Of a stretch of 64,000 nucleotides of DNA, positions 13,630-59,979 are shown piece by piece (the stretch's first letter is position 1; the number at the start of each line of letters is the position of its first letter). The notes beneath the pieces were generated by a model that was given only the letters and a program-made list of their open reading frames with translations, was not told where the DNA came from and searched no databases. Source of the DNA: an uncultured Acidimicrobiaceae bacterium (GTDB lineage Bacteria; Actinomycetota; Acidimicrobiia; Spongiisociales; UBA5794); contig CAMYMC010000042.1 of NCBI GenBank assembly GCA_947259365.1, positions 19,954 to 83,953 on the forward strand, read 5' to 3'. The translations under genes and the position numbers were made by a program.

Positions 13630-14103
13630 CTACCCGTCGGTGGGGCGCCGCCGGTGCGTGTCTCGAGGAATCTCCTTGCTGCCTGCCTCGAGTTCGCGGT
13701 CGTCGCGGGCCACCTGGGCGAGCGTGGCGCTCGCGAGCTCGTTCACCAGGGCGGAACGAGCTGCGCTCCACACCCAGTGGAGCGCACAGACGTTGTCCCA
13801 ACGACAGGGGCCGTCGCGCAAGGCACATTCCCCCGTCTCCAGCGACCCCTCGACGGCCTCGACGATCTCGAGGATCGTGACGTCGTCGGGATCACGGGTG
13901 AGGGCATACCCGCCTCCCCGACCGGGTCGCGATGTGACGAGACCGGCGCGCTGGAGCGCTTGGAAGACCTGGTGGAGAAACCCCTGGGGGATGATCATCG
14001 CCTCGGCGACATTCCCCGCAGTGCTCCGCGATCCGTTGTTGTTCGCGAGATAGACGAGGCCCCGGATGGCGTAGTCAGTGCGTCGGGTGGGAACGAGTTT
14101 CAC
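13630..14103 (-). CDS. Rrf2-family transcriptional regulator with three conserved Cys (probable Fe-S)
   Basis: N-terminal wHTH (DYAIRGLVYLA). CALRDGPCRWDNVCALH cysteine triad as in NsrR/IscR. Confidence 0.75.
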   Translation of the reverse strand: MKLVPTRRTDYAIRGLVYLANNNGSRSTAGNVAEAMIIPQGFLHQVFQALQRAGLVTSRPGRGGGYALTRDPDDVTILEIVEAVEGSLETGECALRDGPCRWDNVCALHWVWSAARSALVNELASATLAQVARDDRELEAGSKEIPRDTHRRRPTDG

Positions 14104-31100: not shown

Positions 31101-32114
31101 TCAGAGCGAGACGACGGACGGGAACACGGCGACGGCGACGGCGACGGGGATCAGCAACGTCACCACGGCCACCGACCATCCGGTGATGCCGACGGGACGG
31201 GCCAGCGCTCTCAGCGGCTCCGTCACCATCACCGGGCGTCCTGAGCGCACCGACCTGGCAACGAGCACGAGCGCGACCAGAGCCATTGCCCCGAGCGCAG
31301 CGAGCATGACGAGCAACGCCCCGCCCCAGCGGATCGACGCGTTCGTTCCGGCCTGGATGCCGTCGGAGGCGAAGGCAACGTTGGCGACGACGATGAGCCC
31401 GTTCCACAGGGCGTGGGCGCCGATCGCGGTCGACCACGCCGCCGCCAGCCCGACGAGCGGCCTGTCCGGACGGGTGCGCCGCTCGTACCAGGCGAGGCTG
31501 ATGAGCGAGGCCCCGAACAGGTGGAGCCCAGCCCCAGCCGACCTGATGAGCGCGACCGGGAGCCAGCCGACACCGGAGACGGCGAGGCCGGTCGAGGCGT
31601 AGAGGAGGTTCTCCACGGCGGCGAATCCGGCGCCGGCGGCGGCGCCGAAGAGGAAGGCCTCGTGACGGCTGCGGGGACGACGCATCAGCGCTCCGAGCGG
31701 CTTCAGCGTCTCCTCGGCAAGCGGGGCGACGATGGCGGCTTCGACGAAGACGAACAGCGCCCATCCCGTCAGCAGCCTCTCCGGGACGCCGCCAGCCCCG
31801 GCCTCACCGAGCCCGGCCTTGAACGCGTCGGCGAAAGGAGTGACGACGGCCAGCACCGCCGCCGTGAGAACCCCCGCCGCCATGATGACGAGCACCGGCA
31901 CGAGGGTCCCCCCGATGATGGCGGAGGCCGTGAGGCGCCTGCGCTCGCCTCCTGGCCCGGCGACGGCGATCGCCAGGAACAGTGCGGTGACCGGCGCACC
32001 GGCGGCGGCAACGACGAGGGTCCCCCACCCGACGTCGTTCCCACCGGCCAGGCCGGCGATCATCGCTGCCGCGGTGACGACGAATGCGATGGCGAATCTC
32101 TTGAACGGGCTCAT
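31101..32114 (-). CDS. PrsW-family intramembrane metalloprotease
   Basis: 8 TM. EExxK (PLAEETLKP), FGAAAGAGFAAVEN, HALWN motifs of PrsW/CPBP-related proteases. The ATG at 32114 overlaps the stop of the upstream giant ORF. Confidence 0.7.
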   Translation of the reverse strand: MSPFKRFAIAFVVTAAAMIAGLAGGNDVGWGTLVVAAAGAPVTALFLAIAVAGPGGERRRLTASAIIGGTLVPVLVIMAAGVLTAAVLAVVTPFADAFKAGLGEAGAGGVPERLLTGWALFVFVEAAIVAPLAEETLKPLGALMRRPRSRHEAFLFGAAAGAGFAAVENLLYASTGLAVSGVGWLPVALIRSAGAGLHLFGASLISLAWYERRTRPDRPLVGLAAAWSTAIGAHALWNGLIVVANVAFASDGIQAGTNASIRWGGALLVMLAALGAMALVALVLVARSVRSGRPVMVTEPLRALARPVGITGWSVAVVTLLIPVAVAVAVFPSVVSL

Positions 32115-35100
32115 TCCCACTCCTCCAGAATCTCCCCGAGCCGGCTGAGCCTGCCGCCCACCCGGGCCCGGCTCCGCTCGAGCGCAGAGCCGGCGGCGAG
32201 CAGGACGGCGGCACCGACGGCGCCGACGATGAGCCAGGTCCCGCCGGCGAGGCCGCGGCGGGCACCTTCGACGACCGGGATGGCAACCGAGAGAACGATC
32301 GCAGTGGTGACGAGCGCCAGGCCGAGGATCGCCCGCCGCCGCACCGCGGTGGCGGCGCCCCACGCAAGCAGGGCGAACCCTTCGGCGGCGACGAGAACGC
32401 CGTAGCCGAGGCCGGTGAACATACTCCACATCGCCAGCGTCGGCGGGACGGCCATGACGAGCCATTCGAGCGCTCTGAGCAGCTTCGCCCAGCGCCCCCG
32501 GGCTCGGCCTGCACTGCGCTCGAGCTCGATGACGGCGAGGACGACGATGCCGATCGGGATCACCGTGCCGTGGAGGCCGAGCGAATTGACCTCACCGGCG
32601 ATGAGCAGCGCCGCGGCGAGCCACGTGACGAGTGCGCCCTGGATGAGAGTGACCCGCCGTGTGCCGGCGCCAAAGGCGGCAACGGAGCCACCGGCGACGG
32701 CGAGGGAGATGCCGACCTCGAACGACAGGAAGCCGAAGGCGGCGGCCGCGGCGACGAGCGAGACGACTCCGAGGGCGAAACCGGCGCCAGACAGCGCACC
32801 CAGGGAGCGGCCCGACCACGGAACGCCGCCGCCCACGGCGACGAGGCCCATGATCGCGACCCCGATGACGGCCGGGGCAACGAGGACGTCGGCGGTGATG
32901 GCGGCCGCGGTGAGGTAGGCGGCGGACACCCCGACGAGGGCGGCCGCCGTGTTGCGGAGCCCGCGGACGAAGGCGCTGGAAGGAGCGAGGGCCGCGGCGT
33001 AGGCGGCGGCGACCGCCGCCACGGTCGCAGACAGGGCGAACGCCCCCGCGTCCTCGTGACTGTTGTAGCCCAGTGCGATCGCGCCCACTCCGGCGACTCC
33101 GGCGGCGCTGCGGAGGGGAACCAACCAGACACGAGCCCGGACCGAACTCCGGGAGTGCACGGCAAGAGAGGAACCGGCGGCGACGATGGCCGCACCGACC
33201 AGGGTGTTGGCCCGGGCGGCGACGGTGAGATCGAACGCCGCCATCAACGCCACCACGGAGGCTGCAGCGAAGACGATCGAAGTGCTCACAACGGTCGCCT
33301 CCACCAACGCGGTGCCCAGCACGCCGATGGCCAGTGCTTCGACCCCGAGGGCAATCCCGAGCACGAGCTCTCCGTCGATGGCGGGAGCGACAAAGGCGGA
33401 GAACACCGCGTAGCCGATGGCGACCTGGGCCACGGCCAGCGGCTGCCACCGCCACAGTGCTGCGACCTGGGACCGTCCGCCGAGGGACGTGAGCCCACCG
33501 AAGACGGCGACGAGGGCGGCGCCGAGCGCAGCCGAGAGCGCGAACCGGGTGCCGGCGTCCGCGCCGAGCGCGGCGTCGGCAAACGAGAGTGCAGCGGTGG
33601 CGAGGGCGGCGCTCACCCAGGCGAGCCGGGCTGCCCGCCCGATAGTGGCGACGACGGCGGTCACGACCGCCTCGACCCCGAGCACGGCGGCGGCGAGCCG
33701 GAACACAGCGTCGGAATCGAACTCGACGGCGCCTGTCACAACCGCGACCGTCAGGCCGACCTGGCCGACGGCGTGGGCTTGAAGGGCCCAGCGTGCCAGC
33801 CGCCGGGGCACGGCGCGATGACCCGACACCGCCGCGATGACTGCGATGACGCCACTGGCGGCTCCTGCGGCGATGATCCGCGACCCGGGTGCCGGCCAGA
33901 GCCACTCAACTCCCGACCAGCCCGCGGCGACGGCGAACGCGGCCGCAGTCCAGGCCAGCGGGCTCCACAAGGCGGTGTCACGCCGAGCCTCGGCGAGAGA
34001 CGCCGCCGCTGCCGCCGCGACCGCCAGTGTGATCGGCAGCCATCCCCCTCCGGCGGAGACGCCCGCAGCGGCAAAGAGCACGACCGACGCATAGGCGAAC
34101 CCGGCTTCACGGCGCGCCCAGTAGAGGGCCGCGGCGAGAACGGCGCCGGCGAGCAGCACCGTGGAGGCCGTGCCGGCGAACAGGGCGGAGACGATGGCGA
34201 CCCCGGCGGTGCCGAGACCTGCGGCCAGGGTGCCGGCGGCGGGCCGGTGGACGAGATCCCAGCCGTAGCGACCGGGGAGCAGCACGGATCCGAGGGAGAG
34301 GGCGAACGCGAGCGGCATCCACCACACCGGATCCTCGAGGAGGTTCACCCAGCGGCCGGCGACATCACCGTATGCGAACCCGACGAGGACGGACACGGGG
34401 AGCGACACGCCCCCGGTGGCGGTGCCCCATCCGAGAACGGCGAAGCAGCCGGCCGCGACGACGGCGAGCAGCCACACGACCCTGCCGTCGGCGAACCCGT
34501 ACCCGACGATCGCAGGGAGGACGCCCAGCATGACGCCGACGGCGGCCCGGAGCCAGGGTGACGTCAACCCGGGATCGCCGCCGCGACGCCGGTTGAGCAC
34601 GGCAGATGTCGCGACGACGACGGCGGCGATCCCGAACACGAGGAAATGGACGTCCCGGACGGCGAGGCCGACCTCGACCGCACCCAGGGCGGCGGCGACG
34701 GTGGCGAGCGGCCACGAGAGCGAGGTGAGGAACGGCCGCTTCGTGGTCGTTGCCACCACGGCGGTGAGCAGCGCCGCCGAGCCGAACGCCACGCCGGCGG
34801 GGCCGCGGAACGGGGCGGCGACGAGGACGGCACCCAGGGCGGCGGCGTGGGCGGCGACGAGGGCGAGCCTGCACATCACGCCCCGGGACCGTCCGCACAT
34901 CCACAGATTGACCCACGACAGGGTGACGAGTGATGCCGTCAGTCGCCAACCCGGATCGGGGAACACGTCGAATCGGTCGGCGGCGAGGATGACGAGGGGA
35001 TGGGCGGCGGCGACTGCGATGACTGCGGGAGCAAGCCGGATCGCAGGTCCGAGAGCTTCGACGAGAAGCTCCACCAGCGGCGCCCCGCCGCGGGACACAC

Positions 35101-37018
35101 GATGGGCCTCGACGGCGTGGGTGGCCACGATGACGCCCAGTGCGACGAGCACCCCGTCTTCGATCCGGGGATGAACGATGAGCGCCGCGTACACGAACAC
35201 GTGGCCGACGACCCCGGCGGCGAGCACCGCAGTCCTGCCGATGCCGGCGATCGAAACAGCGACGAGGACCGCGCCGACGACGCCGAACGCGACGACATCG
35301 GCCATGGCGGTCCCGTAGGTGCCCCACCCGGATACGGCCCGGCCCGTCATCGCCGTGCCGGCGACGAGTGCGGTCGCCGCGAGCGGTATCCGGACGGGGG
35401 CTGCGACGTCGAGGAGGGCGGCGGTGACGGCCGTCATCAGGATCACGGTGCCGCGGACCCCGAGCGAGGTGACGAATCCGTCGGGCCCGGGGACCACCGC
35501 CATCGCCGCGGCGGCGAAGCCCAGTATCGCTGCCGGGCCGAGCGCATAGGACCGCAGCGGATCGAACCGGCCCGATGCGAACCGGCCAACAGCACATGCG
35601 ATGGAAAGCCCGCCGAGCGTCTGAGGGATCGCCGCGGTCGGGACGAGGCGGATCACTCCGGCACCGATGGCGACGAGCGGAGGGATCCACAGCTCCACGG
35701 CCTGGTGGACCCGCCCGAACCCGACGGGCGCCAGCTCCGCGGTCACCGTGCGAACCGAGCTCGAGATCCCACGGGCGACGGTGAGCCCCGAGACGAACCC
35801 CCACCCGATGACGGCGGTGACGGGGTCGATCGTGGCGAGGCCGAGCCCGATGAACCCGGCGATGCGGGCAACGTGGACGACAAGGACGCTGCGACCTCCT
35901 ACGACCCGGTCCAGCGCCCAGATCCCGATGCCGTACGCCACCAGCCCCAGCCCGAGCCACGATGGATCGAGTCCGATCGTCGGCGTGAGACCGAGGGAGA
36001 TGCCGACCGAGACGTATGAAAGGGTCCGCAGCACGGGGGAGATGTCGCGGCGGAGCCGGACCGGGAGGCCCGCCCAGGCGAAGCCGGTGTCGGACGCGAC
36101 CCACAGCACCGCGGCGGTGAGCAGTGAAGCGACGATGATCGCCGGGGCGAGGTCGGTCAGGCCGGGATCAGCGAGGCCGGCCACCCTCGCGTCGTTGAAG
36201 GCAAAGACGAGGGAGAGGACGAGGACGGCGGGCGCGGCGACCGACGCCATCCGCACGGTGGGAGCGGCCAGCGGAGCGAGCGCAGGGACGGTGCGCATCC
36301 TGGAGGCGAGCGCCATCGAGATCGCGATGGCGCCGAGGACGGTGAACAGTTGCGGCGCGGACATGCCGTGCTCCCAGAAGAGGCCGAGCGCTCCGGCAGC
36401 CGCCCAGATCATCGGCGCAGCGAGGTACGCGTAGATGCGCTCACGCCGCGCCAGTCGGTGATAGACGGTGGCGGTCACCACTCCGACGACGGCGTAGGCG
36501 GGCCACCTGGCGGGTCCGTTGACGTCGGGCGGCCACATCGACCCGTCGCGGAAGAGCGCAGACATCATCACCGGGATCGTGAGCCCCCCGATGAGCCCGA
36601 CTGCGGTCGCGGTAGCGGGGAGGTCGCTCCGTCGCCCCAGGTAGTGGGCGAGTCCGAAGAACAGCGCAGGCGTGGCGACGAAGAACACCGGTCGGAGGTT
36701 CTTGACCGTGACGAGGTCGCCGAAGTAGCCGAAGGCGAAGAACACGAAGATGACGAGGATCGCGAGCAGGACGCCGAGGTAGGTGAGGGCATTAGCGGCG
36801 AAGTCGGCGCTGAACGCCCGCCATGTCCTCTTCATCCGGTCGGCGACGCTCGATCTCGCCTTCTCCCAGCTCCGGCCGGATCCCGGCCCGCCGGCCGGTC
36901 CCCCTGCCGGCCGGCGGACTCGGGCACCCTGCCGTCCGTCGACGGGGTCGGCGATCTCGCCTGGCGCCTTCCGTGGAGATGTCTTCGCCGATGTCTGGTG
37001 CGGGGATGTGTCGTGCAT
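32111..37018 (-). CDS. giant polytopic integral membrane protein (about 1635 aa, >35 predicted TM helices), hypothetical
   Basis: One uninterrupted ORF. Ala/Val/Gly/Leu-rich with regularly spaced hydrophobic helices; only the first about 60 aa are hydrophilic. Start uncertain (ATG 37018 or Met62 at about 36835). Opposite-strand ORFs here are shadows. Confidence 0.6.
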   Translation of the reverse strand: MHDTSPHQTSAKTSPRKAPGEIADPVDGRQGARVRRPAGGPAGGPGSGRSWEKARSSVADRMKRTWRAFSADFAANALTYLGVLLAILVIFVFFAFGYFGDLVTVKNLRPVFFVATPALFFGLAHYLGRRSDLPATATAVGLIGGLTIPVMMSALFRDGSMWPPDVNGPARWPAYAVVGVVTATVYHRLARRERIYAYLAAPMIWAAAGALGLFWEHGMSAPQLFTVLGAIAISMALASRMRTVPALAPLAAPTVRMASVAAPAVLVLSLVFAFNDARVAGLADPGLTDLAPAIIVASLLTAAVLWVASDTGFAWAGLPVRLRRDISPVLRTLSYVSVGISLGLTPTIGLDPSWLGLGLVAYGIGIWALDRVVGGRSVLVVHVARIAGFIGLGLATIDPVTAVIGWGFVSGLTVARGISSSVRTVTAELAPVGFGRVHQAVELWIPPLVAIGAGVIRLVPTAAIPQTLGGLSIACAVGRFASGRFDPLRSYALGPAAILGFAAAAMAVVPGPDGFVTSLGVRGTVILMTAVTAALLDVAAPVRIPLAATALVAGTAMTGRAVSGWGTYGTAMADVVAFGVVGAVLVAVSIAGIGRTAVLAAGVVGHVFVYAALIVHPRIEDGVLVALGVIVATHAVEAHRVSRGGAPLVELLVEALGPAIRLAPAVIAVAAAHPLVILAADRFDVFPDPGWRLTASLVTLSWVNLWMCGRSRGVMCRLALVAAHAAALGAVLVAAPFRGPAGVAFGSAALLTAVVATTTKRPFLTSLSWPLATVAAALGAVEVGLAVRDVHFLVFGIAAVVVATSAVLNRRRGGDPGLTSPWLRAAVGVMLGVLPAIVGYGFADGRVVWLLAVVAAGCFAVLGWGTATGGVSLPVSVLVGFAYGDVAGRWVNLLEDPVWWMPLAFALSLGSVLLPGRYGWDLVHRPAAGTLAAGLGTAGVAIVSALFAGTASTVLLAGAVLAAALYWARREAGFAYASVVLFAAAGVSAGGGWLPITLAVAAAAAASLAEARRDTALWSPLAWTAAAFAVAAGWSGVEWLWPAPGSRIIAAGAASGVIAVIAAVSGHRAVPRRLARWALQAHAVGQVGLTVAVVTGAVEFDSDAVFRLAAAVLGVEAVVTAVVATIGRAARLAWVSAALATAALSFADAALGADAGTRFALSAALGAALVAVFGGLTSLGGRSQVAALWRWQPLAVAQVAIGYAVFSAFVAPAIDGELVLGIALGVEALAIGVLGTALVEATVVSTSIVFAAASVVALMAAFDLTVAARANTLVGAAIVAAGSSLAVHSRSSVRARVWLVPLRSAAGVAGVGAIALGYNSHEDAGAFALSATVAAVAAAYAAALAPSSAFVRGLRNTAAALVGVSAAYLTAAAITADVLVAPAVIGVAIMGLVAVGGGVPWSGRSLGALSGAGFALGVVSLVAAAAAFGFLSFEVGISLAVAGGSVAAFGAGTRRVTLIQGALVTWLAAALLIAGEVNSLGLHGTVIPIGIVVLAVIELERSAGRARGRWAKLLRALEWLVMAVPPTLAMWSMFTGLGYGVLVAAEGFALLAWGAATAVRRRAILGLALVTTAIVLSVAIPVVEGARRGLAGGTWLIVGAVGAAVLLAAGSALERSRARVGGRLSRLGEILEEWE

Positions 37019-37123
37019 GTCCCTCTCCGGGCTTCGTGTCCCGATCCTGCGACACCCCGGCAGGCCCGGCTATCGGGGGTTCCCCCCACGATCGGCCGCC
37101 GCAGACGGGTCAGGCCGACCGGT

Positions 37124-37183
37124 GGGGGACGTCCCCCCTGTCGAATACTCCGGCTGCAGCGCACGATGACCGGGACGTCCCGG
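37124..37183. promoter_or_regulatory. pair of perfect 14-bp palindromes GGGGGACGTCCCCC (37124-37137) and CCGGGACGTCCCGG (37170-37183) in the divergent intergenic region
   Basis: Shared GGGACGTCCC core, 46 bp apart, between the giant membrane protein gene (-) and the sensor kinase gene (+). Confidence 0.5.
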
Positions 37184-37330
37184 AGAGGAGGGATGCATGC
37201 ACCAACGCCTGCCCGATGACGACCGCCGATACGATCGACACCGCCGCGGCGACCGGCCCGCAGACAGAAGCGGCCCGGGCCGAGTGTCGCCGACCGGGGG
37301 GTCGTCCCGTTGAGCTCCCGGCAGGCCGCG

Positions 37331-38536
37331 ATGCCGGGAGCCGGGCACGGCGCGGATGGGGCGACGCCGCACGGGGCGGTCCGGTGGGTAACGTTCGCAC
37401 CACGGATGACGGGGACGGAGAACACGCCGCCGACCTCGACCCTCGACGTCGATGCGACGTTGCGGTGGGTCGTCGTCGCGTTTCGCGCGCTCTCCTGGCT
37501 GTGGATGCTGGGGCTCGTCATCACCGCGCTCGTCACCGACGAGGGCGTGCGACCGGCAGTGGCCACGATCGCCATCGTCCTCGCCACGGTGTGGACGGCG
37601 CTCACCGCCCTGATGGCGGCGAGCCGGCGCCTCGCCAACCCCGTGTTCGTCGGCACCGACGCGGTCGTCGGCCTGCTCATCGGCGGGGCGTCATGGGCGG
37701 CTGACGCCGAGCGCTTCTTCCACGGGGGAATGCCGATGTCGGCCATCCTCGTGGTCGCCTTCGCCTTCGGGTTGCGGGGTGCCCTTCCGCTGTCCGTGGT
37801 CATCGCCGCCGAGCAGTTCCTCATCCAGATCGGCGAGCCGGGCGGCCTCAGCGGTGCCATCGGCAGCGTTGTGTTCCCGATCTTCGCCATCGTCATCGGC
37901 GTTGCCTTCGACACCCTGCGGCGCAACGAGGAGCTCCGGGTCGAGGCGGAGCGGAGACTCGTGCTCGAGCAGCGGGAGCGGGCGCGGCACGCAGAACGCG
38001 CTGACCTCGCCAACCGGCTCCACGACTCCTTGCTGCAGACGCTCCAGGTGATACGCACCGACGCCGACGACACCGAACAGGTGCGGTACCTCGCTCGCCG
38101 CCAGGAGCGCGAGCTCCGTCACACGATCGACGAGTTCCGCAGCCCCCACCGGAACAGCTTCCGCGCCGCCCTGCTCACCGCCGCCGACACGATCGAGGAC
38201 ACGTACCGGGTCGAGGTCGACGTCGTGATCCGTGACGACGCCGAGATGGACGACAGGCTCGAGGCCGTCGTCGAGGCGGCGAGGGAGGCGCTGACGAACT
38301 CGGCGAAGCACTCCGGCGCCGATCGCATCGACATGTACGCCGAGGCCGGATCCGCGGAGGTGCAGGTGTTCGTCCGGGACCGGGGGAAGGGCTTCGACCT
38401 GTCCAACGGCCCGGGCGGCGGCGGGCTCGAGCACTCGCTGGCCAGCAGGGTGGCTGCGGTCGGCGGCGAGGTGCGGGTGAGCACGGCGCCGGACGAGGGC
38501 ACCGAGGTCGCCATCCGGTTGGGCGCGGAGACATGA
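37331..38536 (+). CDS. intramembrane-sensing histidine kinase (5 TM N-terminus, HisKA_3 + HATPase_c)
   Basis: ERADLANRLHDSLLQTLQ H-box (NarL-type); HATPase G-boxes. No periplasmic domain. Start ambiguous (TTG 37310 / ATG 37331 / ATG 37406). Confidence 0.7.
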   Translation: MPGAGHGADGATPHGAVRWVTFAPRMTGTENTPPTSTLDVDATLRWVVVAFRALSWLWMLGLVITALVTDEGVRPAVATIAIVLATVWTALTALMAASRRLANPVFVGTDAVVGLLIGGASWAADAERFFHGGMPMSAILVVAFAFGLRGALPLSVVIAAEQFLIQIGEPGGLSGAIGSVVFPIFAIVIGVAFDTLRRNEELRVEAERRLVLEQRERARHAERADLANRLHDSLLQTLQVIRTDADDTEQVRYLARRQERELRHTIDEFRSPHRNSFRAALLTAADTIEDTYRVEVDVVIRDDAEMDDRLEAVVEAAREALTNSAKHSGADRIDMYAEAGSAEVQVFVRDRGKGFDLSNGPGGGGLEHSLASRVAAVGGEVRVSTAPDEGTEVAIRLGAET

Positions 38537-39201
38537 CGGAGCGCAAGCGGGTCTTCCTCGTCGACGACCACGACACGACGCGCCTCGGTGCCCGTCACTA
38601 CCTCGAGGAACGGTTCGACATCGTCGGCGAAGCCGATCACGTCGATGCCGCCATCGAGTTGATCACGGAACGTCAGCCCGATCTCGTCCTGCTCGACGTC
38701 CGTCTCCCCGGAGGCGGAGGCCGTGCGGTGGTCGACGCCGTCCGGCGGACCCATCCGGACATCAAGTTCCTTGCGTTCACCATGTCGACGTCACGCGACG
38801 ACGTCGTCAGCCTCCTCGAGGCCGGGGTCGACGGGTACATCACGAAGGGCACGTACGGTTCCGAGCTCCCCGACCTCGTCGAGCAGGCGCTCGCCGGAGG
38901 CAATCCCATCTCCCGTGACGTCGCCGCGTACCTGCTCGACATCGACGAGGGGATCGTCGAGGCGTCGGGTATCGAGCGGCTCACACCGCGCGAACGCGAG
39001 GTGGTGAACCTGATCGCCCGGGGCTACACGTACCGGGAGACGTCGAGCCGGCTCGGCATCGCCGTCAAGACGCTGGAAAGCCACATCCACCGCATCTTCG
39101 AGAAGCTCGGCATCGCCAGCCGCCACGAGCTCGCCGCCCTGGCCTACGACGCCGGGTTCATCCGTCCCGACGACGATCGGAACGGCGACGCCGCGGACTA
39201 G
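38533..39201 (+). CDS. NarL/LuxR-family response regulator
   Basis: REC domain (VFLVDDHD...LLDVRLPGGGG) plus LuxR HTH (LTPREREVVNLIARGYTYRET). ATGA overlap with the kinase. Confidence 0.85.
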   Translation: MTERKRVFLVDDHDTTRLGARHYLEERFDIVGEADHVDAAIELITERQPDLVLLDVRLPGGGGRAVVDAVRRTHPDIKFLAFTMSTSRDDVVSLLEAGVDGYITKGTYGSELPDLVEQALAGGNPISRDVAAYLLDIDEGIVEASGIERLTPREREVVNLIARGYTYRETSSRLGIAVKTLESHIHRIFEKLGIASRHELAALAYDAGFIRPDDDRNGDAAD

Positions 39202-39366
39202 TCCGTCTGTGCACCGGGGAAATGGCCCCGGTGCGGGTTCAAGTCGTCACCCCCGCACTGCCGATGTTTGAGGTAACAACCTGGGCGGTGTTCCACTCCA
39301 CCGGAACACACAACGGAGGTCCCCTTCCCTCCGACTCCTCCTCAGAGCGGCCGCCCGGGAGTGAGA

Positions 39367-39395
39367 AAACAGCCCCACCCTCCCGGGGCTGTTTT
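39367..39395. terminator. bidirectional intrinsic terminator AAAA-CAGCCCC-ACCCTCCC-GGGGCTG-TTTT
   Basis: 7-bp GC stem flanked by A4 and T4, between the convergent response regulator and dnaB genes. Confidence 0.65.
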
Positions 39396-39437
39396 CGCGT
39401 GGCGGATGACGGATCCCGCGCCGCCGACACGCCGCGT

Positions 39438-40799
39438 TCACATGAGGGGGGTGTCGCGGCCCATGTCGGAGAAGAGGGTGAACTCGGGGAGGAACGTCAT
39501 CTCGATGCGCCCCGTCGCGCCCTGACGGTGCTTGGCGACCTGGAGCTCGGCGACACCTTTCGTCTCCATGGCTTCGGGGTGGTAGTACTCGTGGCGGTAG
39601 AGGAACATCACGACATCGGAGTCCTGCTCGATCGCGCCGGACTCGCGGAGATCGGCGAGACGGGGGCGTTTGTCCTCCCTGGCCTCGAGCGACCTGTTGA
39701 GCTGGGAGACGGCGATGATCGGGACGTGGAGCTCGCGGGCGAGGTTCTTCAGCCCCCGGCTGATGATGGCGATCTCCTGCTGGCGGTTCTCGCCGCCTGC
39801 GGAGCTCATGAGCTGGAGGTAGTCGACGATGACGAGGGACAGGCCGGGCTTGCGCCGCATCCGGCGGCACTTGGCCCTGATCTCGGTGACAGTGAGACCG
39901 GGGGAGTCGTCGACGAAGATCGGCCGCTTGTAGAGCACGCTGGCCGCGTTCGAGAGCTTCGTGAAGTCGCTCTCGGTGAGCTTGCCGGTGCGAAGTCGCT
40001 GGGAGTCGATGCGGCCCTCGGCACACAGCATCCTCGTCACCACTTCCTCGCGGCTCATCTCCAGCGAGAAGATGGCGACCGGCTCGTCCTGGACGGCGAC
40101 CCGCTGCGCGATGTTGAGGGCGAGCGCGGTCTTGCCCATCGCCGGCCTGGCAGCGACGATGACGAGATTCGTCGGATGGAGACCGGCGAGCTTGCGATCG
40201 AGATCGCGGAACCCGGTGGAGATGCCGGTCACGTCGCGCCCGAGCCGGTTGCGCTCCTCGGCCTGTTCGATGGCGGGCCCGAGCAGCGGGTCGATGGGGG
40301 CGAGGCCATCGCCGACGCGACGCTCGGCGACGGCGAAGACGGCCTGCTCCGCCTGGTCGAGCACGTCGTTGATCCCGGTCTCGGTGGCCGTGGCGATCGA
40401 GACGACGTCGCCGCCCGCCCGCATGAGCCGGCGGCGCAACGCGTGCTCCTCGACGATCGCGGAGTAGTGCTCGATGTTCGACGTCGTCGGCACCTGGTCG
40501 ATGAGGTCGGTGAGATAGGCGACGCCACCGACCCGCTCCAGCATGTCGGTCCTCCGCAGCGCCTCGGCGACGGTGACGGCGTCGATCGGCTCGTTGGCGT
40601 CGAAGAGGGAGATGACGGCGGCGAAGATCGCCTGATGCGACGGCTTGTAGAAGTCCTCGGGATGGAGCTTCTCGAGGGCGACGTTGGCGGCGTCGGAAGA
40701 GAGGAGCACGGCGCCGAGGACCGACACCTCGGCCTCGACGCTGCTCGGCGGCACCCTGCTCCCCTGGCCGGCGGTGGGCCGCTCAACGACCGACGTCAT
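39438..40799 (-). CDS. dnaB: replicative DNA helicase DnaB (no intein)
   Basis: N-terminal domain PPSSVEAEVSVLGAVL; Walker A GARPAMGKTA; 453 aa. Confidence 0.9.
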   Translation of the reverse strand: MTSVVERPTAGQGSRVPPSSVEAEVSVLGAVLLSSDAANVALEKLHPEDFYKPSHQAIFAAVISLFDANEPIDAVTVAEALRRTDMLERVGGVAYLTDLIDQVPTTSNIEHYSAIVEEHALRRRLMRAGGDVVSIATATETGINDVLDQAEQAVFAVAERRVGDGLAPIDPLLGPAIEQAEERNRLGRDVTGISTGFRDLDRKLAGLHPTNLVIVAARPAMGKTALALNIAQRVAVQDEPVAIFSLEMSREEVVTRMLCAEGRIDSQRLRTGKLTESDFTKLSNAASVLYKRPIFVDDSPGLTVTEIRAKCRRMRRKPGLSLVIVDYLQLMSSAGGENRQQEIAIISRGLKNLARELHVPIIAVSQLNRSLEAREDKRPRLADLRESGAIEQDSDVVMFLYRHEYYHPEAMETKGVAELQVAKHRQGATGRIEMTFLPEFTLFSDMGRDTPLM

Positions 40800-40882
40800 C
40801 TGCCCTCCTGGCCCATGGGGGATTCGCTTCCCCTCCCTCGGTCCTCATCATGCGCGCTGGGTGTGACACGTATTCCGCAAAC

Positions 40883-40910
40883 AGCTTCGGCGCGAGCGCC
40901 GGGGAAGCTG
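40883..40910 (-). terminator. possible hairpin (CAGCTTC...GAAGCTG with internal GGCGCGAGCGCC) downstream of rplI / in the dnaB leader
   Basis: Nested palindromes. Only a weak T-tract (TTTG) on the minus strand. Confidence 0.3.
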
Positions 40911-41031
40911 CAGCGAGTGTACGCGGCGCCGCCGAGCCTCCTCGCCGGGCCGGGTCGGTTTTGTTTCGCGCCCCGTGGTCAGATTTCCCGGACTCGGGCC
41001 GGGAGCGGCCGTCGTGGCGAGAACCGGTGGC

Positions 41032-41478
41032 TCAGGCGGGGATGACGTCGAGCGTCACGTGGAACTGCACCTCGGGATGCGGTTGCAGTAAGACCTCGTG
41101 GAGGCCGATCTCCTTGATCGAAACGGCGACGGCGATGACGGAACGCTCGACCTCGACGCCGGTGAACTTCTTGATCGCCTCGGCGATGTCCGGGGGACCG
41201 ATCGAGCCGAAGAGTCTGCCCTCGTCTCCGGCGCGGGCGGCAACGACGACCCTGGTTCCGACGAGCGCCGTTGCCAGCTGCTCGGCCTCGAGCCTCGCCC
41301 TCCGCTCCGCCTCCTCCCGCGCCTTGCGTAGACCCTCCGCCTGACGGAGCGCACCCGCTGTGGCTTTGATGGCGTAGTTGCGCGGCATGAGGTAGTTGCG
41401 GGCGTAGCCGGCAGCGACGTCCACGACGTCGCCCTTGACGCCGAGTTCGGGAACGTCACGGACGAGGATGACCTTCAT
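41032..41478 (-). CDS. rplI: 50S ribosomal protein L9
   Basis: [34 protein letters not shown]. Confidence 0.9.
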
Positions 41479-57726: not shown

Positions 57727-59394
57727 TCACGGCCTGGGGATGGCCCGTCCGTTGCAGTCGAGGCCTTCCGCCGGCCGGTACGTGGCGATGACCATGTCGT
57801 CGAGCGTCGTGCCGTCCGGGGCCGTGCGCGTCCGGAAGGTGTTGACCCGGGTGCACGCCCCGATTCGGAACGAGCTCTGCCCGGACTCGGCGACGTCCCA
57901 GTACTTCGTCGAGTAGAACTGCACGGTGATCGACGTGTCGGTGTAACTCGTCCAGATGAGCAGCCCGTACGGGGTGTTGTTGACGACGGCGAGGTCGGGC
58001 GCGGGGAACGACAGCGTCGCTTCCCGCCCGTACGGGTAGCGGCTGATGTAGATCGTGTGGGACCGGTAGGCGTCGAAGTCGAGGCCGGCCAGGAACGCCG
58101 CGTTGAACATCGTCGTGGCGAACTGCGAGATTCCGCCGCCGACGTCGTCGACGAAGTGGCCCTGGCTGATCGTGCCGGCGGCGACGAAACCCTTCTCCCG
58201 CGTCCTGGGTCCGATGAACTCGTTGATGGAGAACACCTCCCCCGGCTCGAGCATCTGGCCCCGGACGAGATCCGCGATGCGATGGATGTTGCTCACCCTC
58301 GACTGGCAGCAGCGGTGCCTCGTCGTGAACTCACCAACGACCTCCTCGATGCCGAGGCTCTCGACACGGGCCCGGCCGCCGTCCGGTTCGGCGAGACGGA
58401 CCGGCAGCTCCACGGTCTCGAGGCCACCAGAGGCGGCGGCGTCGTACATGAGCTCGGTGATACCGGCGTCGGCGGCGCAGCAGCGGTACGCCGGCGTCCC
58501 CAGCTCGAAGGAGACCTCGCCGTCGACGACGTCGAACGTCGGTGGCCCCGGCTCGCTCGTCAGCGGCGCCAGCAGCCGCTCCAGCGAGGGTTCGACTCGC
58601 TCCGGGACGAAGACCGGCACGAGGGTCCCGCCGGACACCACCCCATCGATCCAGGCGCGGACGCTCCCGGCGCCGATGACGGCGGGATGGTCGTTGACGG
58701 CAACACGGAGCGGGACCGCCAGGCGCTGCGCGGCGGCGATCGCGGCATCGAGCTGCAGGTCGGAGATGTCGGTCGGCTCGACGCCCCACGCCACGTCGAC
58801 GGCGTCGGGAGGGTGCGACGGCGCGAGCGCCGCCTCGAGGGCCCTCACGACGAGCCGGTGGTCGAGGTACTGACCCGGAACCGGACGCTGCACCTCGAAC
58901 CCACCGACGACGCCGGTGAACGTCGGCTCGATGGGGACGCTGCGGAGCCGATCGGGGTGGGATTCGACGAACGTGCGGGTCGCCGACGGATCGACGAAGA
59001 ACTCCATCTCGAGGTCCTCGCCCTCGTACCAGGAACGGACCCACGACCGGAAGTCGTCGACGACGCCCGGACCGGAGCCGACCCTCATCGCCGCCGCCGC
59101 GATGGCCTCCCGGTCGTAGCGAAGACCCAGCTCCCCCGCGCCAGCAGTGATCGTCAGACCCGGTAGGTGCAGCTCGATGTCCTCGGCCAGCCGATCAGCG
59201 CCGATTCCGTCGATGGCGCGTTCGAGGTCGGCGGCACCGAGGCCGCCGATCGCCCGACCTTCGAGCGTCACGTTGCGGGGCACCTCGGCATCGGTCACGG
59301 CCCGGTCGACGATGTACGCCCCGCCCACGAGGAGCACCACCAGCGGTGGAACAGAAAAGATCGCGATGACGAGCGATCGCACGAGCCGTCGCAT
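57727..59394 (-). CDS. VanW-family protein (N-terminal TM anchor)
   Basis: C-terminal VanW motifs (YRSHTIYISRYPYGREATLS, NNTPYGLLIWTSYT); 555 aa from MRRLVRS. Confidence 0.7.
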   Translation of the reverse strand: MRRLVRSLVIAIFSVPPLVVLLVGGAYIVDRAVTDAEVPRNVTLEGRAIGGLGAADLERAIDGIGADRLAEDIELHLPGLTITAGAGELGLRYDREAIAAAAMRVGSGPGVVDDFRSWVRSWYEGEDLEMEFFVDPSATRTFVESHPDRLRSVPIEPTFTGVVGGFEVQRPVPGQYLDHRLVVRALEAALAPSHPPDAVDVAWGVEPTDISDLQLDAAIAAAQRLAVPLRVAVNDHPAVIGAGSVRAWIDGVVSGGTLVPVFVPERVEPSLERLLAPLTSEPGPPTFDVVDGEVSFELGTPAYRCCAADAGITELMYDAAASGGLETVELPVRLAEPDGGRARVESLGIEEVVGEFTTRHRCCQSRVSNIHRIADLVRGQMLEPGEVFSINEFIGPRTREKGFVAAGTISQGHFVDDVGGGISQFATTMFNAAFLAGLDFDAYRSHTIYISRYPYGREATLSFPAPDLAVVNNTPYGLLIWTSYTDTSITVQFYSTKYWDVAESGQSSFRIGACTRVNTFRTRTAPDGTTLDDMVIATYRPAEGLDCNGRAIPRP

Positions 59395-59433
59395 GGGGCG
59401 GGATGGTAGGGGGAACCCCCCCTTGTTCAATAC

Positions 59434-59468
59434 ATATCGATTCGATATAGTTATATCGGATCGATATA
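59434..59468. promoter_or_regulatory. two AT-rich palindromes ATATCGATTCGATAT and TATATCGGATCGATATA (candidate PadR operators)
   Basis: Located 14-48 nt upstream of the PadR ATG in an otherwise GC-rich genome. Both share the ATATCGA half-site. Confidence 0.55.
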
Positions 59469-59481
59469 ACATGGACCGATC

Positions 59482-59979
59482 ATGATGGATCTCGCCGTTC
59501 TCGGACTGCTCCACGAGGGGCCGCTCCACGGATACCAGGTACGACGCCGGCTCCACGAGCTCGGGTTCCGCCGGGTGTCCTTCGGCTCGCTCTACCCGGC
59601 GATTCGCCGGCTCGAGGGACGGGGGTGGATCGCGGCGAGGCGCGGCAACGGCCGGCGCAAGGAGTACGGGCTCACCGAGGAGGGTCGCCGCGCCTTCGAG
59701 GAGCTGCTCGATGCCGGGGTCGACGACGGCGACGAGCGGAGATTCCGGATCCGGCTCGCCTTCTTCGCCCATCTCGAGCCCCACCGGCGGATCGCGGTGC
59801 TCGAAGAGCGCCGGGCGGTGCTGACCGACCGGCTCGCAGAGCTGCGGCGGAACCGGCGGCGGAGCACGCCGGCCGACCGCTACACGGTGGCGCTGATGGA
59901 GCGCAGCGTGGCGACGACCGAGAGCGAGATCGCATGGCTCGACGGCCTCGTCGCCGCCGAGCGGGCGGGTCGCACGTGA
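59482..59979 (+). CDS. PadR-family transcriptional regulator
   Basis: [17 protein letters not shown]...[13 protein letters not shown] wHTH. Confidence 0.8.

What the first reader, a model, noticed from the sequence alone, without database searches (positions are those of the whole stretch)
37124..37183. Two perfect 14-bp GGGACGTCCC-core palindromes in the divergent promoter between the giant membrane protein and the sensor kinase
GGGGGACGTCCCCC and CCGGGACGTCCCGG lie 46 bp apart. Perfect 14-bp palindromes at 70% GC are unlikely by chance twice in 300 bp. They are positioned as operator sites that could co-regulate both divergent operons, possibly bound by the adjacent NarL-type regulator.
Basis: seen in the sequence. 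Interest (0 to 1): 0.6.

Follow-up and report, generated by a model that had tools for sequence, protein, structure and literature searches.

The report
Regulator docking site, plus a look-alike
One of the two palindromes looks like a conserved docking site for the neighbouring two-component regulator, placed to switch on a promoter; its real partner is an unnoticed third site that faces the giant membrane-protein gene, and the second palindrome is probably not a site of that kind.

Summary
Both 14-bp palindromes are present exactly as described. A 14-bp palindrome is not rare at 70% GC: the window has 13 and shuffles give 13.2. Two that share a 10-bp core 46 bp apart never occurred in 1000 shuffles.

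Comparison with 81 orthologous kinase-regulator loci from Acidimicrobiia shows a conserved 18-bp box, ATGGGGG-N4-CCCCCAT. It is 19-fold enriched upstream of the kinase. Its centre lies 31-33 nt before an nAYGAT -10-like hexamer, which puts it about 43.5 bp upstream of the predicted transcription start.

- **Palindrome 1 (37124-37137)** fits this class. Its hexamer is CACGAT at 37162-37167, and box, hexamer and spacer length are kept in the one close relative.
- **An unnoticed box (37075-37087)** fits the class on the minus strand. Its hexamer is CAGGAT at 37049-37044, and it faces the giant membrane-protein gene.
- **Palindrome 2 (37170-37183)** does not fit. It scores -2.6 bits, lies on the predicted transcription start, and its left half is lost in the close relative.

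The best reading is two back-to-back promoters, each activated through one box, most likely by the adjacent NarL-type regulator. That step is inferred, not shown. This is an ordinary kind of system with a previously undescribed motif.

The parts
37122..37139 (+). Box 1, GTGGGGGACGTCCCCCCT. Predicted activator site centred at 37130.5, about -43.5 from the predicted plus-strand start.
   Evidence: Scores 9.6 bits with a motif model built from 55 independent box promoters. An nAnnAT hexamer starts 31.5 nt after its centre, as in 52 of 61 boxes upstream of orthologous kinases. Conserved in L001/L085 except for the central G>A.
37162..37167 (+). CACGAT, the -10-like hexamer of the predicted plus-strand promoter. 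The predicted start is near 37174.
   Evidence: It sits at the class-typical distance from box 1. L001 has GACGAT at the same position, while the 24-nt spacer has diverged in sequence but kept its length. The rule 'start = hexamer end + 7' comes from leaderless targets in other loci.
37170..37183 (.). It overlaps the predicted plus-strand start and abuts the ribosome-binding sequence. It is not a member of the box class.
   Evidence: The best motif-model score near it is -2.6 bits on plus and -2.7 on minus. No hexamer lies at the class distance on either strand (read). L001/L085 have GCGCAACGTCCCCG, so only the right half ACGTCCC is kept.
37072..37089 (-). Box 0. On the plus strand it reads ATCGGGGGTTCCCCCCAC, on the minus strand GTGGGGGGAACCCCCGAT. 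Centre at 37080.5. Predicted activator site of the giant-gene promoter.
   Evidence: Best motif-model hit in the whole window (15.7 bits, minus strand). Identical in L001/L085. A hexamer lies at the class distance on the minus strand.
37044..37049 (-). CAGGAT on the minus strand, the -10-like hexamer of the predicted giant-gene promoter. Predicted start near 37037, leader of about 19 nt containing GGAGAGGG, then ATG at 37018.
   Evidence: It starts 31.5 nt from the centre of box 0. L001 has CACGAT here.
37182..37192 (+). Strong ribosome-binding sequence GGAGAGGAGGG, followed by ATG 37193 and ATG 37197.
   Evidence: Read. Fully conserved in L001/L085 together with the next ~60 nt.
37197..37313 (+). 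Possible 38-codon small ORF or leader. Coding status is doubtful.
   Evidence: L001 keeps an ORF of 40 codons with an in-frame 6-bp indel and the same TGA. By my manual comparison, amino-acid identity is only about 50%, against 92-96% for the kinase and regulator. In the other frame (ATG 37193) the window has a stop at codon 9, whereas L001 reads through into the kinase.
37299..37308 (+). Third, one-mismatch copy, GGGTCGTCCC.
   Evidence: In L001 only TCCCGTTGAGCTC is conserved here.
37314..37341 (+). Perfect 10-bp stem with an 8-nt loop directly after the small ORF's stop codon. Possibly the terminator of the box-1 transcript.
   Evidence: repeat I17. The sequence is not conserved in L001.
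37389..37394 (+). TAACGT, a -10-like hexamer 11 nt before the kinase ATG. Probably a proximal, near-leaderless kinase promoter.
   Evidence: GGTAnCGTT is kept in L001, L002, L003 and L052. Most orthologous loci have TANNNT 6-8 nt before the kinase start codon.
37406..39201 (+). Kinase (37406-38536) and NarL-type response regulator (38533-39201), overlapping by 4 bp.
   Evidence: Pfam HATPase_c, and Response_reg + GerE. The best NCBIfam match for the kinase is the MacS family, below its cut-off. The best solved relative of the regulator is DevR/DosR.
32111..37018 (-). Giant 1635-aa membrane protein with dozens of hydrophobic segments, the predicted target of box 0.
   Evidence: No Pfam or NCBIfam family; 46 overlapping hydrophobic stretches by a crude hydropathy scan. 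Homologues sit behind box promoters next to the kinase operon in L025 (42% identity over 459 aa) and L076 (28% over 206 aa).
39211..39234 (+). Hairpin GCACCGGGG-AAATGG-CCCCGGTGC just after the regulator's stop codon. Likely the operon terminator.
   Evidence: No hexamer at the class distance.
59409..59451 (+). A further box, GGGGGAACCCCCCC (59409-59422), with TATAGT (59446-59451) starting 31.5 nt after its centre. It lies upstream of a PadR-family regulator gene (ATG 59482) and next to a VanW-like gene.
   Evidence: Motif-model scores of 12.6 and 8.7 bits. Pfam PadR and VanW.

Best explanation
The intergenic region holds two back-to-back promoters, each depending on one copy of a conserved 18-bp inverted repeat (consensus ATGGGGG-N4-CCCCCAT) centred about 43.5 bp upstream of the transcription start.

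It starts near 37174 and carries a strong ribosome-binding site and a short ORF, and it may read on into the kinase-regulator operon.

The protein that binds the boxes is most likely a dimer of the adjacent NarL-type response regulator, acting as an activator that contacts RNA polymerase from the -43.5 position. If so, the system feeds back on its own locus and switches on cell-envelope genes.

The second palindrome is not a box of this class. It lies on the predicted transcription start. Its perfect symmetry is specific to this genome, and it is either incidental or a weak secondary site.

**Shown:** the motif, its enrichment, its fixed distance to a -10-like hexamer, its conservation in the close relative, and the kinds of genes behind it. 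**Inferred:** the transcription starts, activation rather than repression, and the identity of the binding protein.
For: - **Enrichment.** GGGG-N2-6-CCCC boxes occur at 2.77 per kb in the 260 nt upstream of 81 orthologous kinases, against 0.148 per kb elsewhere in the same loci; 53 of 81 loci have one.
- **Fixed distance.** 52 of 61 upstream boxes have an nAnnnT hexamer (mostly GATGAT, CATGAT, TACGAT or CACGAT) starting 31-33 nt after the box centre. Other distances hold 1-3 each, apart from 7 at 48 nt. Outside the kinase upstream regions the figure is 59 of 317.
- **DNA-level action.** In six loci the hexamer is followed after 6 nt by the kinase start codon, so the box lies upstream of a leaderless start.
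- **Clustering around the operon.** A second group of box promoters sits just after the regulator gene in about 20 loci. Single boxes serve two divergent promoters in L006, L025, L052, L070, L076 and L083.
- **Window and relative.** Box 1 pairs with CACGAT and box 0 with CAGGAT (minus strand), both at 31.5 nt. L001/L085 keep both boxes, both hexamers and the 24-nt spacer length while the spacer sequence diverges. The two box centres are 50 bp apart in the window and 40 bp in L001, a whole helical turn of difference.
- **Independent motif model.** Its top hits in the window are box 0 (15.7 bits), 59404-59427 (12.6) and box 1 (9.6).
- **The regulator.** Its recognition helix, VKTLE[NST]H, is conserved in nearly all of the loci. 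Helix variants track box-flank variants, ENH with ATGGGGG and ETH with ATCGGGG.
- **Targets.** Giant-protein homologues sit behind box promoters in L025 and L076. Other targets are GDSL lipase, alpha/beta hydrolase, Acyl_transf_3, LPG_synthase_TM and phospholipase A2-like proteins.
Against: - There is no experimental evidence for binding, and none for the transcription starts.
- Box 1 scores only 9.6 bits, and shuffled windows give 1.6 positions at or above that score. Its case therefore rests on position, hexamer and conservation together.
- Only one independent close relative exists; L085 is the same population as L001.
- The kinase seems to have its own near-leaderless promoter 220 bp downstream. 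What the box-1 transcript is for is therefore unclear.
- The small ORF is poorly conserved at the protein level.
- The match between helix variants and box flanks is confounded by shared descent.
- L002 and L003, the next-closest kinases, have no box upstream.
Confidence: 0.6

Rival explanations
1. One reading: palindromes 1 and 2 are a pair of equivalent operators for the adjacent regulator, read through the GGGACGTCCC core. Occupying both controls both divergent operons. For example, binding at -43.5 could activate while binding at +2.5 could limit expression.
For: Two palindromes sharing a 10-bp core 46 bp apart appeared in 0 of 1000 shuffles. L052 also has two boxes 45 bp apart. The half-site GGGAC/GTCCC is that of the DosR box (recalled from memory), and DevR/DosR is the regulator's best solved relative.
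Against: - Palindrome 2 scores -2.6 bits against the family motif.
- Its left half is lost in L001/L085, while the flanks are perfectly kept.
- In L052 the two boxes each have their own hexamer on opposite strands. That arrangement matches box 0 plus box 1 here, not palindromes 1 and 2.
- Across loci the centre of the box varies (ACAT, AGAT, TAAT, CAAT), so the ACGT core is not what is conserved.
- Two of the three DosR base-contacting residues differ in this regulator: K182 is E and N183 is S (residue roles recalled from memory).
Confidence: 0.15
2. The boxes are real promoter elements, but a protein other than the adjacent regulator reads them. Candidates are another dimeric transcription factor or a specialised sigma factor shared by Acidimicrobiia.
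For: Nothing here shows who binds. The motif has low information content, about 14-16 bits. Some boxes lie kilobases from the operon, for example 59409 in the window and L005 -1093.
Against: - The only genes common to all the box-bearing loci are the kinase and regulator, and boxes flank them on both sides.
- Palindromic symmetry and use of one box in both directions argue against a sigma -35 element.
- The 7-4-7 layout suits a dimer of GerE-type helix-turn-helix domains (general knowledge of the family).
- Recognition-helix variants track box flanks.
Confidence: 0.2
3. The palindromes act as RNA hairpins in 5' leaders. They could stabilise the transcript or mask the ribosome-binding site, or pair with each other as a 10-bp long-range stem. 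They would not be protein-binding DNA.
For: Each can form a 5-bp GC stem with an ACGU loop, and the substitution in L001's palindrome 1 falls in that loop. Palindrome 2 abuts the ribosome-binding sequence. The flanks of the box covary (ATG/CAT, ATC/GAT, CTG/CAG).
Against: - Folding of 37100-37420 is no more stable than shuffles, z = 0.06.
- Rfam finds nothing.
- In six loci the box lies upstream of a leaderless start and so is not transcribed from that promoter.
- A fixed distance to a -10-like hexamer is a property of DNA, not RNA.
- With the predicted start at 37174, most of the left arm of palindrome 2 is not in the RNA.
Confidence: 0.08
4. Chance or neutral sequence: GC-rich palindromes with no function.
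For: Palindromes of 14 bp or more are as common as shuffles predict, 13 against 13.2. One-mismatch copies of the core are not enriched. Palindrome 2 is not conserved.
Against: For palindrome 1: it belongs to a 19-fold enriched, position-locked motif class, and it forms a conserved island between diverged flanks in L001. For the pair: the shared core was never seen in 1000 shuffles.
Confidence: 0.05

Closest known systems
Operators of NarL/FixJ-family (LuxR-type helix-turn-helix) response regulators at activator positions. Examples: the lux box centred at -42.5, the ComA box TTGCGG-N4-CCGCAA, and NarL 7-2-7 sites (all recalled from memory).
   Same: An inverted repeat of two 6-7-bp half-sites about one helical turn apart. 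It is centred about 42-44 bp upstream of the start and lies next to the regulator's own operon. The regulator has REC + GerE domains.
   Different: The half-site sequence (ATGGGGG) and the 7-4-7 spacing are not those of any operator I can name. Binding has not been tested.
DosR/DevR of Mycobacterium tuberculosis and its Dos box, TTSGGGACTWWAGTCCCSAA (motif recalled from memory).
   Same: DevR is the best solved relative of this regulator, E 1.8e-28 over its full length. Both motifs have G-runs on the outside and C-runs mirrored. The window's palindromes contain GGGAC/GTCCC.
   Different: GGGAC and GTCCC abut here but are 4 bp apart in the Dos box. Across loci, GGGAC is not the conserved part of the box. 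Two of three DosR base-contact residues are changed. The kinase has no GAF domains.
MacRS of Streptomyces coelicolor (SCO2120/2121), a NarL-type system that directly controls membrane-protein and lipoprotein genes (PMC9739842, PMC10345050).
   Same: The kinase's best NCBIfam match is the MacS family, aligned over its full length. The predicted targets are membrane and envelope proteins adjacent to the operon.
   Different: The score of 110 bits is far below the family cut-off of 300, so this is not an equivalog. The published MacR consensus, which I recall as TGAGTACnnGTACTCA but could not read here, is unrelated to the G-run box.
LiaRS/VraSR-type cell-envelope stress systems of Firmicutes.
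   Same: VraR is among the best solved relatives, E 1e-25. The kinase has a membrane-embedded N-terminal region and no recognisable external domain. The operon appears autoregulated and has envelope-related targets.
   Different: There is no LiaF-like partner gene. The phylum, the motif and the targets all differ. The stimulus is unknown.

Membership tests
Conserved 'G-run box' promoter class of Acidimicrobiia kinase-regulator loci (defined here) | Inverted repeat matching ATGGGGG-N4-CCCCCAT | tested here: met
   Palindrome 1 scores 9.6 bits and box 0 scores 15.7 bits with a model trained on 55 independent promoters. Palindrome 2 scores -2.6 bits and does not meet the feature.
Conserved 'G-run box' promoter class of Acidimicrobiia kinase-regulator loci (defined here) | nAnnnT (-10-like) hexamer starting 31-33 nt after the box centre | tested here: met
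   Box 1 pairs with CACGAT 37162-37167. Box 0, on the minus strand, pairs with CAGGAT 37049-37044. Palindrome 2 has no such hexamer on either strand (read).
Conserved 'G-run box' promoter class of Acidimicrobiia kinase-regulator loci (defined here) | Conserved in close relatives while the flanks diverge | tested here: met
   Boxes 0 and 1 and both hexamers are kept in L001/L085, and the spacers have diverged. There is only one independent relative. The left half of palindrome 2 is lost.
Operator of a NarL/FixJ-family response regulator | A REC + GerE/LuxR-type regulator is encoded nearby | tested here: met
   Pfam Response_reg (6e-21) and GerE (2e-13) at 38533-39201.
Operator of a NarL/FixJ-family response regulator | Specific binding of the regulator to the site | not testable with these tools
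   The evidence is indirect: co-occurrence with the operon in 53 of 81 loci, a conserved recognition helix, and helix variants that track box flanks.
Activator-dependent (class II type) promoter | Site centred about -41 to -44 from a mapped transcription start | tested here: inconclusive
   The position of -43.5 is deduced from the hexamer and from leaderless start codons 7 nt after the hexamer in other loci. No start has been mapped.
DosR (Dos box) regulon | GGGACT-WW-AGTCCC spacing, and K179/K182/N183 in the recognition helix | tested here: not met
   The half-sites abut here. The regulator has K, E and S at the aligned positions. The motif and residue roles are recalled from memory.
MacRS (NCBIfam NF047322 MacS equivalog) | Score at or above the curated cut-off of 300 bits | tested here: not met
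   110 bits, E 1.4e-31, full-length alignment. This is a distant relative only.
Known structured RNA (Rfam 15) | Match at the gathering score | tested here: not met
   For 36000-38500 there was no match better than E 0.9.

The most novel reading that the evidence does not exclude
Many uncultured Acidimicrobiia run a cell-envelope and membrane-lipid remodelling regulon through one MacS-like kinase and NarL-type regulator. The regulator reads a previously undescribed 7-4-7 G-run box at -43.5. The regulon would include giant polytopic membrane proteins, MprF-like, acyltransferase and lipase genes. In 37 loci it would also include a box-driven conserved ~80-nt RNA ending in a covarying hairpin, which is either a regulator-dependent small RNA or an attenuator in front of the kinase. 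In this window the same logic drives the giant gene and a short leader transcript, and palindrome 2 acts as a lineage-specific self-limiting site at the transcription start.
Probability: 0.3. Interest if true: 0.55.

Novelty: new member of a known kind. Interest (0 to 1): 0.4.

Why it matters
If correct, this gives a testable operator motif, promoter layout and candidate regulon for a two-component system that is widespread in Acidimicrobiia. That class is abundant in soil and water and has almost no experimental genetics.

It links an uncharacterised 1635-aa polytopic membrane protein to envelope and lipid functions through shared regulation. It also shows that the eye-catching perfect palindrome core is not the conserved feature, which matters for anyone designing a motif scan or a binding experiment.

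As biology it is conventional: an autoregulated NarL-type system with nearby targets.

Tried and rejected
- **Rfam.** The region gave nothing better than E 0.9. Eight related loci at gathering score gave only a tRNA.
- **RNA folding.** 37100-37420 is no more stable than shuffles, z = 0.06.
- **Standard promoter and terminator scan.** Nothing found in 36800-37600. The TTGACA/TATAAT consensus does not suit this lineage.
- **DosR-type reading of GGGAC/GTCCC.** Rejected on spacing and on recognition residues.
- **Box as a coding feature.** In many loci the box reads ATG GGG nnn nnC CCC YAT (M-G-x-x-P-Y/H) behind a ribosome-binding-like sequence. Rejected because L065 and L066 have spacers that are not a multiple of three, and L012, L046 and L066 lack a start codon there.
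- **SAM-I riboswitch.** A weak minus-strand hit in L038 (21.6 bits against a cut-off of 44.4) was judged chance: no P1 helix, and a plus-strand gene with its terminator lies where a regulated gene would have to be.
- **The 607-aa ORF at 39222-41045.** Considered as a downstream target and rejected as spurious. The real gene there is dnaB on the minus strand.
- **Search for more close relatives.** The metagenome scan returned only the L001 population again, as L084 and L085. The genome scan returned nothing above 51% identity.
- **Motif-model score alone.** It is not significant for box 1.
- **MacRS paper.** It could not be read.
- **Long-range pairing.** 37126-37143 with 37291-37308 (repeat I2) is not kept in L001 (checked by hand).

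Full report
**1. The observation.** They are the only exact copies of GGGACGTCCC in the window. Copies with one mismatch are not enriched, 8 against 12.3 expected, though one of them (GGGTCGTCCC) lies nearby at 37299-37308.

At 70% GC the window holds 13 perfect palindromes of 14 bp or more, and dinucleotide shuffles give 13.2. Two of them within 100 bp turn up in 23% of shuffles. Two that share the central 10-mer did not turn up in any of 1000 shuffles. The pair is therefore unusual because of the shared core, not because the sequences are palindromes.

**2. The setting.** To the left, on the minus strand, is a 1635-aa ORF (32111-37018). It has no Pfam or NCBIfam family, and a crude hydropathy scan finds dozens of hydrophobic segments (46 overlapping stretches). 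A PrsW-type protease gene follows it. To the right is a histidine kinase. Homologues are 375-377 aa long, so its start is ATG 37406, not the TTG at 37310. A REC+GerE response regulator follows at 38533-39201. Homologues come from Acidimicrobiia and other Actinomycetota metagenome-assembled genomes. The kinase is a distant relative of the MacS family, at 110 bits against a cut-off of 300. The regulator's best solved relative is DevR/DosR. The 607-aa plus-strand ORF after the regulator is spurious; the real gene there is dnaB on the minus strand.

**3. The close relative.** Only one independent close relative was found: L001, with 92% kinase identity. L084 and L085 are the same population. Its intergenic region aligns with patchy conservation.
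- Palindrome 1 is an island of conservation, GTGGGGGAC[G/A]TCCCCCCTGTC, between diverged flanks.
- Palindrome 2 reads GCGCAACGTCCCCG. The right half is kept and the left half is gone.
- Also fully conserved are ATCGGGGGTTCCCCCCA at 37072-37088, ACGATG at 37163-37168, and about 70 nt from ACGTCCC through a strong ribosome-binding sequence (GGAGAGGAGGG) and ATGCATGC.

**4. The wider family.** I fetched 80 loci encoding relatives of the kinase, at 40-51% identity, and looked upstream of each. A G-run/C-run inverted repeat recurs, with consensus about ATGGGGG-N4-CCCCCAT. Its centre is variable and A/T-rich (ACAT, AGAT, TAAT, CAAT).
- Defined loosely as GGGG-N2-6-CCCC, it occurs at 2.77 per kb in the 260 nt before the kinase, against 0.148 per kb in the other 837 kb of the same loci. 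53 of 81 loci have one.
- 52 of 61 such boxes are followed by an nAnnnT hexamer starting 31-33 nt after the box centre. Most are nAYGAT: GATGAT, CATGAT, TACGAT, CACGAT. Other distances hold 1-3 each, apart from 7 at 48 nt. Elsewhere in the loci only 59 of 317 box orientations have this.
- In L004, L006, L037, L067, L073 and L077 the kinase start codon begins 7 nt after the hexamer. That is the layout of a leaderless mRNA, and it puts the box centre at about -43.5 and outside the transcript.
- A second group of box promoters sits just after the regulator gene in about 20 loci. In L006, L025, L052, L070, L076 and L083 boxes carry hexamers at the same distance on both strands.

**5. The window in this light.** Palindrome 1, in its 18-bp register GTGGGGGACGTCCCCCCT (37122-37139, centre 37130.5), is followed after 24 nt by CACGAT (37162-37167). 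L001 has GACGAT after a spacer of the same length but different sequence.

The conserved ATCGGGGGTTCCCCCCAC (37072-37089, centre 37080.5) is the same box. Read on the minus strand it is followed at the same 31.5 nt by CAGGAT (37049-37044), which is CACGAT in L001. That promoter points at the giant gene. The predicted start is near 37037, followed by a leader of about 19 nt containing GGAGAGGG, then ATG 37018.

The two box centres are 50 bp apart here and 40 bp apart in L001, a difference of one helical turn. L052 has the same design: two boxes 45 bp apart, each with its own hexamer on opposite strands.

A motif model trained only on other loci ranks box 0 first in the whole window (15.7 bits), a box at 59404-59427 second (12.6) and box 1 next (9.6, tied with a probably coding hit at 13966-13989). 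Palindrome 2 scores -2.6. The model alone is weak: shuffles give 1.6 positions per window at or above 9.6 bits. The case for box 1 therefore rests on score, hexamer, location and conservation taken together.

**6. Who binds.** This step is inference.
- The only genes shared by all the box-bearing loci are the kinase and the regulator, and boxes flank them on both sides.
- The regulator's helix-turn-helix, including the recognition helix VKTLE[NST]H, is conserved across nearly all of the loci.
- Helix variants go with box-flank variants, ENH with ATGGGGG and ETH with ATCGGGG. Shared descent could produce the same pattern.
- Two 7-bp half-sites 11 bp apart, centre to centre, suit a dimer of GerE-type domains. 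A centre near -43 is where LuxR-type activators sit. Both points are general knowledge, not tested here.
- The DosR analogy suggested by GGGAC/GTCCC does not hold. The spacing differs, GGGAC is not the conserved part of the box, and two of DosR's three base-contact residues are changed (residue roles recalled from memory).

**7. What the system controls.** Genes behind box promoters in other genomes encode the following:
- a secreted GDSL lipase/acylhydrolase;
- membrane-anchored alpha/beta hydrolases;
- an Acyl_transf_3 membrane acyltransferase;
- proteins of the LPG_synthase_TM (MprF-like) family;
- a phospholipase A2-like protein.

Homologues of the window's giant protein are also among them, in L025 (42% identity over 459 aa, leaderless, divergent from the kinase) and L076 (28% over 206 aa, downstream of the regulator). 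The theme is envelope and membrane-lipid remodelling, as in MacRS (PMC9739842) or LiaRS/VraSR-type systems.

**8. Palindrome 2 and the rightward transcript.** By the rule 'hexamer end + 7', the plus-strand start is near 37174, inside palindrome 2. Most of the palindrome's left arm would then not be transcribed, which argues against a hairpin role. The stretch between the -10 hexamer and the start is expected to be free to vary, which fits the loss of the left half in L001.

The transcript begins with a strong ribosome-binding site and ATG 37193/37197. A 38-codon ORF (37197-37313) is retained in L001 with an in-frame indel and the same stop codon. By my manual comparison it is only about half identical in amino acids, so I do not call it a gene. 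A perfect 10-bp hairpin (37314-37341) follows it.

The kinase has its own -10-like TAACGT 11 nt before its ATG, and L001, L002, L003 and L052 share it. The box-1 transcript may therefore be a separate short RNA, or an inducible second promoter for the operon. I cannot tell which. Palindrome 2 could still be a weak, lineage-specific second site at the start position, and the shared core with palindrome 1 remains unexplained by chance.

**9. Verdict.** It is wrong in its particulars: the motif, which sites count, and the statistics. This is an ordinary autoregulated NarL-type system whose operator and regulon appear to be undescribed. Two full-text searches found no description of a binding motif for this system.

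Noticed in passing
Loci L012-L078, e.g. L038:5735-5974. Not present in the window.: 37 of the 81 kinase loci carry a very conserved non-coding module between the box promoter and the kinase: CGGGGACTTCAGGGC...CGTCCCTYGAAGCGACAATGGGGACC, followed by a 10-16-bp GC-rich hairpin. The 16-mer GAAGCGACAATGGGGA is identical across loci whose kinases are only about 45% identical to the window's kinase. In the hairpin, 9 of 14 pairs show compensatory changes, and 0 of 500 shuffles reach that level. Rfam has no family for it. It looks like a box-dependent small RNA or an attenuator-type leader.
   Followed up: partly
window:59409-59451: A further G-run box, GGGGGAACCCCCCC, with TATAGT at exactly the class distance. 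It lies between a VanW-like gene (57727-59394, minus strand) and a PadR-family regulator gene (59482-59979), beside AT-rich palindromes (ATATCGAT repeats) that may be the PadR operator. It is a candidate distant member of the same regulon.
   Followed up: partly
window:39222-41045 (+) versus 39438-40799 (-): The long plus-strand ORF after the regulator is an antisense artefact of high GC content. The real gene is dnaB on the minus strand, followed in L001 by rplI, rpsR and ssb.
   Followed up: yes
window:39211-39234: A perfect 9-bp-stem hairpin, GCACCGGGG-AAATGG-CCCCGGTGC, 10 nt after the regulator's stop codon. It is probably the operon terminator. It also matches the loose box pattern but has no hexamer at the class distance.
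   Followed up: partly
window:37013-37031 versus 37179-37202: The two divergent 5' regions mirror each other: CCCGGAGAGG...ATGCA(T)GCAC occurs on both strands, and CGGGAC follows both -10-like hexamers. This suggests that the promoter-leader unit was duplicated in inverted orientation.
   Followed up: partly
window:37193-37219 and L001:6788-7003: In L001 the ATG behind the strong ribosome-binding site is in frame with the kinase with no stop, giving a 446-aa ORF. In the window the same frame has TGA at codon 9, where L001 has AGA. The two substitutions in the first eight codons are both synonymous in this frame.
   Followed up: partly
L001:1807-6679 versus window:32111-37018: The giant gene is called as three separate genes (574, 891 and 159 aa) in the related metagenome-assembled genome, yet it aligns collinearly with the single 1635-aa ORF here. 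The cause is either frameshifts in that assembly or real disruption.
   Followed up: no
Kinase loci L004-L083, the last 20 nt before the kinase start codon: Nearly all orthologous kinases have a TANNNT hexamer (TAGCTT, TAGCCT, TACGAT) 6-8 nt before the start codon and no ribosome-binding sequence. Leaderless expression therefore seems to be the rule for this operon in Acidimicrobiia.
   Followed up: partly
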